Shown: positions 8,107 through 58,279 of the stretch, piece after piece | How positions within the stretch are numbered: position 1 is the stretch's first letter | Layout of the letters: the number at the start of each line of letters is the position of its first letter | Source of the DNA: the human T2T-CHM13v2.0 reference genome, Homo sapiens | Reading direction: 5' to 3' (one strand) | Assembly: GCF_009914755.1 (NCBI RefSeq) | Contig: NC_060925.1 | DNA: 64,000 nucleotides | Notes under the pieces: model-generated | What the model was told of the DNA's origin: nothing | The model's input: only the letters and a program-made list of their open reading frames with translations | The model's database searches: none | Position numbers and translations under genes: made by a program

Positions 8107-16950
<8,844 letters not shown>

Positions 16951-44564: not shown

Positions 44565-45410
44565 TGAGTAGCTGGGATTACAGGCATGTGCCACCATGCC
44601 CAGCTGATTTTCTATTTTTAGTAGAGATGGGGTTTCTCCATGTTGGTCAGGCTGGTCTCAAACTCCCGACCTCAGGTGAGCCACCCACCTTGGCCTCCCA
44701 AAGTGCTGGGATTACAGGCATGAGCCACTGTGCCCGGCCTACTGAGAAGTTTTTTTTTTTTTATTTGAGATGGAGTCTAGCCCTGTTGCCCAGGCTGGAG
44801 TCCAGTGGCGTGATCTCAACTCACTGCAACCTCTGCCTCCCAGGTTCAAGCGATTTTCCTGCCTCAGCCTCCTGAGTAGCTGGGATTACAGGCATGTGCA
44901 ACCACAACCGGCTAATTTTTTGTATCTTTATAAGATGGGGTTTCACCATGTTGTCCAGGCTGGTCTCGAACTGCTGACCTCGTGATCTGCCTGCCTTGGC
45001 CTCCCAAAGTGCTGGGATTACAGGCGTGAGCCACCATGCCTGGCTGAGAAGAGTTTTAAATGTTTTGTTTTGTTGCTGTTTTAGCAGGTAAACATTTAAT
45101 TTCAGCTTCACTTGGCGGGTGTTTTTTTCTATGAGGTATGATCAAGGTCATAAGTGAGAACGCAGTTTTGGGCTTGTGTCCCCTGTCTCACATGGCCCAG
45201 GAAAAGAAATATACATTATATTGTATAGATTAGGCATTTGATAACCTACTTGGCATTTGAAACAAAACTCTTTCTAAATCATGAAGAGTAATGCTGAGCA
45301 TGTGTGTCTTCCTGTCCATCCAAGCTTTTCATCAGCTTTCATCCTTCTGTCAGCCTGACATGGAAGAGCAGTGGAATAGGGTAGGAGGTCAGGCTGGGCA
45401 TGGTGGCTCA

Positions 45411-45713
<303 letters not shown>

Positions 45714-45739
45714 TTACAGAGGAAGGCAAAGTATACTGT

Positions 45740-45990
45740 GATACTCCTGGGGATGGTTCTGGCAGGAGTGAATAATCTAATGTCCCATGTTAGATTATGT
45801 CCCACAGGTTACAGGATCATGCTTTTGATTTTAATTTTAGTAGGACTTGGAACATTCAAGATGGTAGTGAGGGCACATGAAACTCTTCAGGATGAAATCT
45901 GGGCAGAGACTTATTAATTAATTTTGCATTTACTACTTCATGTCCCACATTAGATCATTTACTCCTGCCAGAACCATCCCTGCAAGTATC
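45740..45990. repeat. Inverted-repeat-flanked intronic duplicate of an LRIG2 exon 18 segment
   Basis: 45802-45940 matches 47960-48094; 45740-45783 is the reverse complement of 45947-45990 (38/44 identical). Confidence 0.93.
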
Positions 45991-45993
45991 TGA

Positions 45994-46405
<412 letters not shown>

Positions 46406-47805: not shown

Positions 47806-48032
47806 AAACATTGCAGCGGCCCGTGTGGAACATAAACAGAGAACTAGGCCTGCCTCATCCTCCTTTTTCCCAGCAGCCAGTCCATGAGTCACCACAACTT
47901 CATCAAAATGAGGGCCTGGCAGGGAGAGAGCCAGACTGTTCTGCTTCTTCCATGTCCTGCCACAGGTTACAGGATCATGCTTTTGATTTTAGTAGGACTC
48001 GGAACATTCAAGATGGTAGTGAGGGCACATGA
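47806..48032 (+). CDS. LRIG2: LRIG2 exon 18 coding part (ETLQRPVWN...DGSEGT*)
   Basis: ttctcag|AA acceptor; in frame with exon 17; stop TGA 48030-48032. Confidence 0.93.
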
Positions 48033-48626
48033 AACTCACTTCAGGATGAAATCTGGGCAGAGACTTATTAATTAATTTTGCATTTACTACCTCAGAGCTC
48101 AGAAGAAACTCCGAAGTCAGCATTTGCTTTACTCTTTCTTTATGATTGCATCTGACCGCACCAAGGTGGGCCATGCGTTGTTTGGTCTTATACCTGATGA
48201 AGAAATGGCAACAGCTGACAGAAATGGGTACAGCTCATCAAAAATGTGCAGCACCGGCAGAGGGAAGATACGGGGCAAATGTGCTTCCTGATGCTTCCAT
48301 GGGGATGTGCCCTGGTGTGCATCTGCTTGTCAGGAAGAGTCACATTGCTGCTTAACATGCTGGATTGCCCTAGTCTTCAGAATGGTCCTGAGAAAACATC
48401 ACTACTTCGATGTTCTACTTTGCTTTCCAAGGAGCAAAAATAACTTTGGAGCCTTCTGGGAAGTGTGCCTGGGATTCTTCAGTGGTTTCAGGCAGATAGT
48501 TGAGACTGGGGCTTTGATATTCAAGGTCTTTGGCAAGAATCCCAGGCTTGACCAACTGGTACCAGGTCAAAGATTTTTGTATTCTTGTGAATTTTTTTTT
48601 TTGTCCCTATTGCCCAGGGATGTCAT

Positions 48627-56959: not shown

Positions 56960-58279
56960 TGAGCCACCGTGTCCAGCCAAGCACTTTATTCTTTAGGAGG
57001 CACTTTCCACAGACATCTCACTTGAATTTCACAACACTCTTATGATATAGATTGGGTAGACAATTTTACTTTCCACATTTTATAGTTACGGAAACTGGCT
57101 TGGTGACAGTATCACTTACCCAATATCAAAAGTTTTTGTTTCAGCTCACCCACTTCCTCTTGTTCTTTGTTTAAAAACTTTTGATATTAAGTAAGCGATA
57201 ATTTCACCAAGTCCCAGGCAGCCCATCCCTGAGAGCATTGGCCAGAAAGACAGCAGAATTTGAATCCAGGTTTTCTGACTCAGATTCAGGGTTTTCCCCA
57301 CTATGATACCTTACAATTCAGAGTATCTTCTCTATAGTCTGCATAAACACTTCGGTAAAACCCTCCGGACACTGATCACTTCCAGTCTGAAAGTTTGGAC
57401 TGGAATTTACCCTAGTAAAAAATGCTTTTTACTAAATTTCTAATAGAAAAATTAGACTTTTTTTTTTCTCTTTTAAGGTGACATGCAAAAAAAAAAAAAA
57501 ATGCCGTAGTGTTAATTGTATTTTTTGTTTTGGAGTGGGACATGCTAGGGCCTATATGGTAGCCTCCTGCTGAGTTATGAAAGATATTTATTCACACTTG
57601 TAGATATTTACAGGTTTGTGACAGTGCTTAAGCTATCTGTGCTGAAGGACTAGTTGCCATGGATCAATACTTTTGTAAAATGCAGTAAGAATGAATTTCT
57701 AGAAAAATTAAGACAAAATACAAACAAAATTTTTATTACAGATTCAACACATAAAATTACTATCAAACTGCAATTAAAATTTCTAAATGCTTATTCTCAG
57801 TTTCTGTAGTTTATCGTGGACAAAGAGCAAATAGTTTGTGGATTGGCACAAGTCTGCAGATCACTTCTGTAGTGTTGCTGTAACTGTGTAACAGTTCATG
57901 TATGTGTCAGGATGGGAATCGGTTTTATTTATTTAGGGGATTCCTTTTAGTCTTGCTGGTATGATATGATTGAAACTGAGGACTGGACTTTTGTCTAGAG
58001 GCCCCTCTGACTAGAAGCAACAATTAAAACACCTTTTCAGCTCACTGACTTCCTCCTGTTCTTCAGCTCATCACTTGCTGGGTAGAGCATTTGTAGCATG
58101 CTATTTGTTTTCCAGGCCTGCTGCTTTTCTGGCCAATGCTCTCAGGGATGGGCTGCCTGTGATTTGTTATAAAGGAAATTCTATCACAAGAGAGGGAAAG
58201 GGAAAAGGAAGTACATGGGTCATTATACTGGGAGGAAGGTGGTCTGATGCTATGTAGTCCGATGTGGACTTGTGGGTGA

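What the first reader, a model, noticed from the sequence alone, without database searches (positions are those of the whole stretch)
45740..45990. Copy of LRIG2's own stop-codon region captured between 44-bp inverted repeats inside intron 17
Seen: 45802-45940 duplicates 47960-48094 (last codons, TGA and first ~60 nt of 3'UTR) in the same orientation, about 2.15 kb upstream of the source. It differs by a 6-nt attttа-type duplication, a CpG C>T, a 2-nt deletion and one more C>T. It is enclosed by inverted arms, 45740-45783 versus 45947-45990 (38/44 identical; inner 34 bp 32/34). TGTCCCA recurs at 45781, 45798 and 45941. A short aborted fold-back (tgtcccatgttagatta) precedes the insert, and ATGTCC is also present next to the source (47952-47957). 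There is no poly(A) tail and no recognisable TSD. Inference: this is a fixed scar of iterative microhomology-driven template switching (Pol theta TMEJ or FoSTeS/MMBIR style) rather than retrotransposition. In pre-mRNA the arms could form a ~34-bp stem that loops out a mimic of the terminal exon, and the ~135-bp direct repeat could prime deletion of most of the exon 18 coding sequence.
Basis: partly seen in the sequence, partly recalled or inferred. Interest (0 to 1): 0.8.

Follow-up and report, generated by a model that had tools for sequence, protein, structure and literature searches.

The report
Exon-end copy inside an intronic palindrome
A 144-base copy of the end of the LRIG2 coding sequence sits at the centre of a small, locus-specific inverted repeat 2.15 kb upstream in the last intron; it looks like an old DNA-repair scar of a known kind and shows no sign of function.

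Summary
Window 45797-45940 copies 47952-48094, the last 26 codons, TGA and 62 nt of 3'UTR of LRIG2 exon 18. The copy is in the same orientation and differs by 2 C>T substitutions and 3 small indels. It lies between inverted arms 45735-45783 and 45947-45995 (41/49 identical; inner 32/34).

New points:
- Removing 160 nt (45788-45947) makes the arms abut around a 3-nt loop, so the insert sits at the symmetry centre.
- In the whole T2T genome the arms occur only here and the insert only at these two places. A multi-copy MITE/TIR family is therefore rejected.
- The exon C-terminus is conserved in relatives only 40-50% identical, so copying went from exon to intron.
- There is no poly(A) tail.

Best reading: a templated copy-paste insertion during repair or replication restart at a quasi-palindrome centre, a small-scale analogue of the Xq27.1 palindrome insertions and class-2 templated insertions. 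Whether the arms pre-existed or arose in the same event needs primate outgroups.

The functional ideas are unsupported. The stem is nested in a ~300-bp inverted-Alu stem, and the longest perfect tract between copy and source is 52 nt.

The parts
45735..45783 (+). Left arm of the locus-specific quasi-palindrome (well-matched inner part 45750-45783)
   Evidence: I9: 49 nt, 84%; inner 34 nt 32/34; outer 15 nt 9/15, P = 0.004-0.015 in a fixed register.
45780..45798 (+). First copy of the 19-nt duplicated centre: ATGTCCCA plus 11 nt that resemble the start of the right arm. The same 9-10 nt can equally be read as a snap-back copy of the end of the left arm.
   Evidence: 16/19 identical to 45940-45958. 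ATGTCCCA at 45780. Read directly.
45797..45940 (+). Inserted copy of the end of LRIG2 exon 18: 26 codons, TGA at 45878-45880 and 60 nt of 3'UTR. The strict gap-free start is 45802.
   Evidence: alignment, blocks, translation (27 codons from an ATG to the same stop).
45940..45958 (+). Second copy of the 19-nt duplicated centre, continuous with the right arm
45947..45995 (+). Right arm of the quasi-palindrome
47952..48094 (+). Source of the copy in exon 18: last 26 codons, stop codon 48030-48032 and first 62 nt of the 3'UTR
   Evidence: The C-terminal motif is conserved in distant relatives.
45392..45688 (+). Flanking Alu in sense orientation, an independent insertion with a 12-bp target-site duplication at 45378-45389 and 45689-45700
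   Evidence: (12/12); matches to the SRP RNA family, from which Alu derives (recalled).
46006..46317 (-). Flanking Alu in antisense orientation with a 26-T tail. With the sense Alu it forms the outer ~300-bp stem that encloses the whole structure.
   Evidence: I1; no target-site duplication found; best match 4 nt.
45708..45719 (+). ACAGGTTTACAG in the left flank, matching the first bases of the copied segment apart from one extra T. Its role is unexplained.
   Evidence: 3 matches in the window (here, the copy and the source) against 0.09 expected.

Best explanation
A germline break or stalled fork at the symmetry centre of a small, locus-specific quasi-palindrome in LRIG2 intron 17 was repaired by copy-paste synthesis. 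A free 3' end primed on the end of exon 18, 2.15 kb downstream on the same chromosome, using a few bases of homology (ATGTCC..CA at the 5' junction, 1-3 nt at the 3' junction). It copied about 144 nt and rejoined the other end. This left the centre of the palindrome duplicated (19 nt) on both sides of the insert. The donor was not lost.

The palindrome had arms of about 49 bp and a 3-nt loop, and itself most likely arose from an earlier short template-switch inversion. The insertion raised the spacer from 3 nt to 163 nt, which removes the cruciform or hairpin hazard. The locus has since drifted neutrally: 2 C>T changes in the copy, and 3 small indels that may instead date from error-prone synthesis.

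Shown: the anatomy, the uniqueness in the genome, the direction of copying, and the absence of retrotransposition and transposon hallmarks. Inferred: the pre-existence of the palindrome, the break at its centre, and the enzymes involved. No function is proposed.
For: 1. Removing 45788-45947 (160 nt) in silico gives a 101-nt DNA hairpin with a 3-nt loop and MFE -36.6 kcal/mol. Composition shuffles give -8.8 +/- 2.3, best -15.1. The insert is therefore at the symmetry centre.
2. A 19-nt direct duplication (16/19) brackets the insert. This is as expected if both ends kept the centre, either through off-tip opening of hairpin-capped ends or through a backward return of a switched strand.
3. Copy and source are the only two places for this sequence in the genome, in the same orientation and 2152-2158 bp apart.
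4. The arms are unique in the genome. All 15 other matches to the 20-mer core are confined to 12-23 nt.
5. Direction of copying. The exon tail is conserved in relatives down to 40-47% identity, including a 903-aa LRR+Ig protein. The copy carries a CpG>TpG change, a 2-codon tandem insertion and R>W.
6. There is no poly(A) tail.
7. The arms are more diverged (8/49) than the insert (2/137): P = 0.0006-0.016 if mismatches are independent.
8. Precedent. Insertions near the centre of the 180-bp Xq27.1 palindrome have 1-2 bp junction homology and are attributed to hairpin cleavage plus MMBIR/FoSTeS (PMC6489244, passages). The pathway from cruciform to hairpin-capped ends, Artemis opening and end joining is described, as is lower fragility with a longer spacer (PMC7999016, passages). 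Break-site patches of 73-414 bp copied from elsewhere are reported (PMC5110952, passages).
Against: No outgroup or population data could be consulted, so a pre-insertion allele with an intact palindrome has not been seen.

The divergence argument weakens if the clustered mismatches in the outer arm count as single events (P = 0.045-0.20), and it disappears for the inner 34 nt alone (P = 0.18-0.40).

That reading favours iterative switching.

The arms are shorter than the palindromes with documented fragility that I saw in the papers read (180 bp at Xq27.1; Alu-sized repeats).

The third ACAGGTT(T)ACAG at 45708 is not explained by this model.
Confidence: 0.6

Rival explanations
1. One complex replicative event. 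Serial microhomology-driven template switches (FoSTeS/MMBIR or synthesis-dependent end joining) produced, in one go, a short fold-back, the 144-nt exon-18 copy and an inverted copy of the neighbouring sequence. The second arm would then be as young as the insert, and outgroups would carry one arm only.
For: The inner 34 nt of the arms (32/34) are not significantly more diverged than the insert (P = 0.18-0.40).

The piece at 45790-45798 is a perfect 9-nt reverse complement of 45772-45780.

ATGTCC recurs at every junction and beside the source.

ACAGGTT(T)ACAG also occurs in the left flank (3 matches vs 0.09 expected), hinting at repeated homology sampling.

Template switching can create perfect inverted repeats in a single event (PMC8794818, abstract and passages; PMC5453318, search listing only).
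Against: It needs at least 4-5 switches, including a separate direct re-copy of ATGTCCCA that cannot be templated from the opposite arm, because the centres are direct repeats and not inverted.

The outer 15 nt of the arms are homologous (9/15, P = 0.004-0.015) but far more diverged than the insert.

A simple 160-nt excision restores a clean palindrome, which the one-step model does not require.
Confidence: 0.25
2. An L1-mediated (class-1 type) retro-insertion of a fragment of LRIG2 RNA, with the 19-nt duplication as a genuine target-site duplication.
For: The insert is flanked by a 19-nt imperfect direct duplication, within the size range of L1 target-site duplications. Class 1 templated insertions are defined by a duplication of at least 5 bp (PMC5110952). 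The insert lies wholly within one exon and in transcript orientation.
Against: There is no poly(A) tract at either end of the insert on either strand. By my own reading, the last 40 nt hold no AATAAA or ATTAAA. The duplicated site starts with ATGTCCCA, which is not a TTTT/A-type cleavage site. So two of the three defining features in PMC5110952 are not met.
Confidence: 0.04
3. Transposon capture. The arms are terminal inverted repeats of a MITE-like DNA transposon that picked up a host gene fragment.
For: Only the geometry: inverted arms enclosing foreign sequence.
Against: The arms have no other copy in 3.1 Gb. The 27-mer at <=3 mismatches matches only the 2 arms. The 20-mer at <=2 mismatches gives 15 other matches, none of which extends. 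BLAST-type searches find only self. At the arm-to-arm divergence of 6-16%, most sister copies of a family of that age would have been caught (own calculation). No direct repeat flanks the arms. The arms could not be compared with Dfam, because no such library is available here.
Confidence: 0.03
4. Assembly artefact of T2T-CHM13.
For: Only one assembly was examined.
Against: The copy differs from the source by 5 events and the arms from each other by 8 mismatches. A mis-join or collapsed duplicate would be identical. The region is unique sequence between two ordinary Alus.
Confidence: 0.01

Closest known systems
Interstitial insertions into the 180-bp Xq27.1 palindrome (PMC6489244, passages read)
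   Same: Copied, donor-retaining DNA is inserted near the centre of a locus-specific palindrome, with only 1-2 bp of junction homology. The events are attributed to hairpin formation, cleavage and MMBIR/FoSTeS. That palindrome is evolutionarily young and is flanked by interspersed repeats.
   Different: Those inserts are 78-774 kb from other chromosomes or arms, recurrent and pathogenic. This one is 144 nt from 2.15 kb away in the same gene, the arms are about 49 bp and not 90 bp, and it appears to be an old neutral scar. Recurrence here is unknown.
Class 2 templated sequence insertions (TSI/TSIP; PMC5110952, passages read)
   Same: A patch of about 70-400 bp (median 191 bp in the experiments) is templated from elsewhere with the donor retained. 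There is no poly(A), and the junctions have end-joining features. These are interpreted as germline double-strand-break repair.
   Different: Class 2 events are described as lacking flanking duplications and as coming from distant loci through RNA. This one has a 19-nt duplication, an intragenic donor 2 kb away and a palindromic target. Its polymorphism status is unknown.
Center-break palindrome revision, and cruciform resolution followed by hairpin opening and end joining (PMC7999016, passages; the Cunningham 2003 reference was seen only in the reference list of PMC3300023, and is not held)
   Same: The rearrangement is confined to the symmetry centre and lengthens the spacer, which stabilises the repeat.
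   Different: As far as I recall, the usual outcome is a small central deletion. Here it is a templated insertion with a duplicated centre.
Pol theta-mediated end joining with templated insertions (PMC7454005, passages)
   Same: Microhomology-primed copying, snap-back and 'distant' template classes, and error-prone synthesis. The 10-nt fold-back-like piece fits well.
   Different: Reported insert sizes are 2-35 bp (5-15 bp in the reporter assay). The 144-nt tract is several-fold longer.
Short template-switch mutations that create inverted repeats (PMC8794818, passages; PMC5453318, search listing)
   Same: A plausible origin for the arms themselves: a reverse-complement copy of adjacent sequence made in one step.
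   Different: That model does not by itself bring in sequence from 2 kb away.

Membership tests
Class 2 templated sequence insertion | Inserted tract is templated from another genomic place and the donor is retained | tested here: met
   exactly two places in the genome, and the donor exon is intact.
Class 2 templated sequence insertion | No poly(A) tract and no target-site duplication; end-joining features at the junctions | tested here: inconclusive
   No poly(A) and 1-8 nt of junction homology. However, a 19-nt imperfect duplication flanks the insert.
Class 2 templated sequence insertion | Derived from RNA | not testable with these tools
   The tract lies within one exon and crosses no splice junction.
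Class 1 (L1 ORF2-mediated) templated insertion | Target-site duplication of at least 5 bp | tested here: met
   19 nt, 16/19.
Class 1 (L1 ORF2-mediated) templated insertion | Poly(A) tail downstream of a polyadenylation signal | tested here: not met
   no A or T run at either end of the insert.
Class 1 (L1 ORF2-mediated) templated insertion | Insertion at a TTTT/A-type site | tested here: not met
   The duplicated site begins with ATGTCCCA.
Palindrome-centre insertion (Xq27.1 type / center-break) | Breakpoint at or near the symmetry centre of an inverted repeat | tested here: met
   excising 160 nt leaves the arms abutting on a 3-nt loop.
Palindrome-centre insertion (Xq27.1 type / center-break) | The palindrome existed before the insertion | not testable with these tools
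   This needs primate orthologues or human haplotypes. Divergence statistics only lean that way.
Pol theta-mediated end joining, templated insertion | Microhomology at the start and end of the copied tract | tested here: met
   ATGTCC(..)CA at the 5' junction and A/TCA at the 3' junction.
Pol theta-mediated end joining, templated insertion | Insert length in the reported range (2-35 bp) | tested here: not met
   144 nt against the range given in PMC7454005. Only the 10-nt piece at 45788-45797 fits.
MITE / TIR DNA transposon with captured host fragment | The terminal inverted repeat recurs at many genomic sites | tested here: not met
   no second locus.
MITE / TIR DNA transposon with captured host fragment | Direct target-site duplication immediately outside the arms | tested here: not met
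   none at either candidate arm boundary.
MITE / TIR DNA transposon with captured host fragment | Match to a curated repeat consensus (Dfam/Repbase) | not testable with these tools
   No repeat library is on hand. Rfam gave only Alu/SRP-type hits and sub-threshold noise.

The most novel reading that the evidence does not exclude
The patch was copied not from DNA but from LRIG2's own transcript. On this reading the locus is a germline fossil of RNA-templated repair in cis at a palindrome-centre break. The evidence does not exclude it. The insert is in transcript orientation, lies wholly within an exon of the same gene 2 kb downstream, has the size of the RNA-derived patches reported for class 2 templated insertions (PMC5110952), and carries several small indels that would suit low-fidelity reverse transcription. 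Papers on transcript-templated break repair in human cells were seen in a search listing only (PMC12065846).
Probability: 0.1. Interest if true: 0.5.

Novelty: new member of a known kind. Interest (0 to 1): 0.25.

Why it matters
It is a clean, fully resolved natural example, at base-pair scale, of a templated insertion landing at the centre of a small locus-specific palindrome. This is a miniature of the disease-causing Xq27.1 events, and it shows how such an insertion defuses a hairpin-prone repeat. It could serve as a test case for dating and ordering palindrome birth and palindrome repair across primate T2T assemblies.

It has no evident consequence for LRIG2 itself. For practice: the 140-nt paralogous stretch carries a stop codon and a 27-codon open frame, so it is worth knowing about when designing exon-18 primers or probes.

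Tried and rejected
I replaced it with a 27-mer at <=3 mismatches. The first try got no answer from the machine and the repeat worked.
- Extension of the palindrome beyond the two Alus: none. Local scores were 11 and 15 against shuffles of 12.6 +/- 2.0 and 15.4 +/- 2.2.
- A second template elsewhere in the window for the flanks or the 10-nt piece: nothing above chance.
- Rfam: only Alu-derived hits (SRP, mir-1268, mir-1285, mir-3135), all below their gathering scores, plus weak noise over the arms (MIR166, 21.8 bits against a gathering score of 60).
- Paralogue test for the antiquity of the tail within the human genome: 10 matches at E<=10. Only exon 18 and the copy (E = 2.7e-4) were significant, and LRIG1/LRIG3 were not detected. 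This was replaced by the representative search.
- Intended positive control for detecting a multi-copy MITE, using the other small palindrome at 57099-57211. It turned out to be unique too, so the BLAST-type genome search has no positive control on a multi-copy family here. The pattern scans did return scattered chance matches on 12 chromosomes, which shows genome-wide coverage.
- An ancestral CpG (ACGT) at the palindrome centre would explain the TG/CA difference between the duplicated centres. It would require 4 of 4 inferred CpGs to be lost while only 1 non-CpG change occurred in 137 nt. I consider this possible but strained, and do not rely on it.
- Cunningham et al. 2003 (center-break mechanism) is not held.
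- The search for 'LRIG2' plus 'intron 17' found 0 papers. I found no description of this structure in print with that one search.

Full report
**What is there**

Three collinear blocks link 45802-45940 to 47960-48094: 32 nt at 100%, 60 nt at 95% and 56 nt at 98%. A gapped local alignment extends the match to 45797-45940 versus 47952-48094.

The copy differs from the source by five events (block coordinates):
- a 3-nt deletion (source 47957-47959);
- a 6-nt tandem duplication (45834-45839);
- C>T at the only CpG (45848 vs 48000);
- a 2-nt deletion (source 48037-48038);
- C>T (45937 vs 48091).

The source is the last 26 codons of LRIG2, the TGA at 48030-48032 and 62 nt of 3'UTR (hub annotation). 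The copy still reads as 27 codons from an ATG to the same TGA.

The inverted arms are 45735-45783 and 45947-45995: 41/49 overall, the inner 34 nt at 32/34, the outer 15 nt at 9/15. ATGTCCCA occurs at 45780, 45797 and 45940.

1. If 45788-45947 (160 nt) is removed in silico, the two arms abut around a 3-nt CCC loop. The 101 nt then fold as a single DNA hairpin of -36.6 kcal/mol, against -8.8 +/- 2.3 for shuffles. The insert is therefore at the symmetry centre of a quasi-palindrome.
2. The insert is bracketed by an imperfect 19-nt direct duplication, 45780-45798 versus 45940-45958 (16/19). It consists of the centre plus the first 11 nt of the right arm. The two readings cannot be separated from this sequence alone.
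3. The structure sits in a 320-nt gap between two oppositely oriented Alus.
   - The sense Alu has a perfect 12-bp target-site duplication (45378-45389 and 45689-45700), so it is an independent insertion.
   - The palindrome does not continue beyond the Alus.

**Is the arm a transposon end?**

- A BLAST-type search with 45686-46004 found 4 matches: itself, the exon-18 source and the two arms against each other.
- Searches with each arm side alone found only self.
- An exhaustive scan with the 20-mer shared by both arms, at <=2 mismatches, gave 17 matches. Two were the arms (0 mismatches). The other 15 each had 2 mismatches, against 1 for the reversed-pattern control.
- I fetched all 15 with 200-nt flanks. 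In 15 of 15 the similarity stopped at 12-23 nt.
- A 27-mer at <=3 mismatches matched only the two arms (2 of 2; control 1).

With arm-to-arm divergence of 6-16%, most sister copies of a family of that age would have passed these thresholds (my calculation). No direct repeat flanks the arms. A multi-copy MITE/TIR family is therefore rejected. A comparison with Dfam could not be made.

**Direction of copying**

The exon-18 peptide found 16 representatives at E<=0.001 among 1.84 billion proteins.

I aligned 10 of them with the exon peptide and the copy. I left out P0003 (99% identical), P0006, P0008, P0010, P0011 and P0018.

The terminal motif is kept in relatives only 40-50% identical over the tail; D60, F61, R63, T64, E72 and T74 are invariant. 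One of these relatives is a 903-aa protein with LRR and Ig domains.

The representatives carry no names, so calling them LRIG-family proteins is inferred from that one architecture. The copy has a 2-residue insertion inside this motif and an R>W change at the lost CpG.

The exon is ancient and the intronic copy is derived.

**Mechanism**

Retrotransposition by L1 is disfavoured. There is no A-tail on either strand and no TTTT/A-type site, so two of the three class-1 features listed in PMC5110952 are not met, although a flanking duplication exists.

The best-supported reading is a copy-paste insertion at a break or stalled fork at the palindrome centre.
- At the 5' junction, ATGTCC..CA is shared between target and donor. 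The 3-nt 'deletion' may simply be a bulged primer-template alignment.
- At the 3' junction, 1-3 nt are shared.

Known precedents:
- the Xq27.1 palindrome insertions, with breakpoints near the centre, 1-2 bp homology and MMBIR/FoSTeS proposed (PMC6489244);
- the pathway from cruciform to hairpin-capped ends, Artemis opening and end joining, together with the stabilising effect of a longer spacer (PMC7999016);
- break-site patches of 73-414 bp (PMC5110952).

Pol theta fits the 10-nt piece but not the 144-nt tract, since its reported insertions are 2-35 bp (PMC7454005).

**Two-step or one-step?**

The arms overall are more diverged than the insert: 8/49 against 2/137, P = 0.0006-0.016. If the clustered outer mismatches count as single events, P is 0.045-0.20. 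For the inner 34 nt alone it is 0.18-0.40.

The one-step model also needs a separate direct re-copy of ATGTCCCA.

Primate outgroups would settle the question, and none was available.

**Age**

Two substitutions in 137 nt give 1.46% (95% CI 0.18-5.3%). At a recalled neutral rate near 1e-9 per site per year, this means millions to tens of millions of years. The event would be younger if the differences arose during error-prone synthesis.

**Function**

The arms do pair in an RNA fold of 45730-46000 (-99.5 kcal/mol, z = -6.8). In the 941-nt context, however, the whole thing is the tip of a ~300-bp inverted-Alu stem (-613.7 kcal/mol, z = -51.8), which would dominate any double-stranded RNA behaviour.

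The copy begins 146 nt inside exon 18 and so lacks that exon's acceptor. No annotated transcript touches it (hub table).

The longest perfect tract between copy and source is 52 nt. That is short for homologous deletion, by the minimal-homology figures I recall.

I see no evidence of function.

**Unexplained**

ACAGGTT(T)ACAG, the first bases of the copied tract, also occurs at 45708-45719 in the left flank. That makes 3 matches in the window against 0.09 expected. It may have helped pair the broken end with its donor, or it may be chance.

**Literature**

I read passages only of PMC5110952, PMC6489244, PMC3300023, PMC7999016, PMC7454005 and PMC8794818. The other papers are cited from search listings. 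One search for LRIG2 with 'intron 17' returned nothing.

**Verdict**

The finding is real and neatly resolved. It is a new member of a known kind and probably neutral.

Noticed in passing
window 57099-57137 / 57173-57211: A second non-Alu quasi-palindrome (39-nt arms, 87% complementary, 35-nt spacer) lies about 0.9 kb beyond the LRIG2 3' end. Like the arms studied here, it has no other copy in the genome. Small locus-specific inverted repeats therefore seem common in this window.
   Followed up: partly
window 14488-15020: Two Alus lie tail to tail, with the A-tail running straight into the T-tail. This gives 176-nt arms at 82% with only 6 nt between them, about 230 nt upstream of the exon at 15251. 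As I recall, inverted Alus this closely spaced are considered rare and unstable.
   Followed up: no
window 46006-46317: An antisense Alu has an uninterrupted 26-T tail but no detectable target-site duplication (best direct match between its two flanks is 4 nt). It has only 6 CpGs left. It starts 10 nt from the end of the right arm.
   Followed up: partly
window 45708-45719: ACAGGTTTACAG in the left flank matches the first 11 nt of the copied exon tract apart from one extra T. There are 3 occurrences in the window against 0.09 expected.
   Followed up: partly
window 45797-45880: The intronic copy keeps an ATG-to-TGA frame of 27 codons. Both indels in its coding part are multiples of three (-3, +6), while the 2-nt deletion falls just after the stop. 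With only two events this is compatible with chance.
   Followed up: no
window 45392-45688 with 46006-46317: The inverted Alu pair is separated by 320 nt and is predicted to form a ~300-bp RNA stem. As I recall, such pairs are typical substrates for A-to-I editing. The Rfam hits in this stretch (SRP, mir-1268, mir-1285, mir-3135) are all Alu-derived and below their gathering scores.
   Followed up: partly
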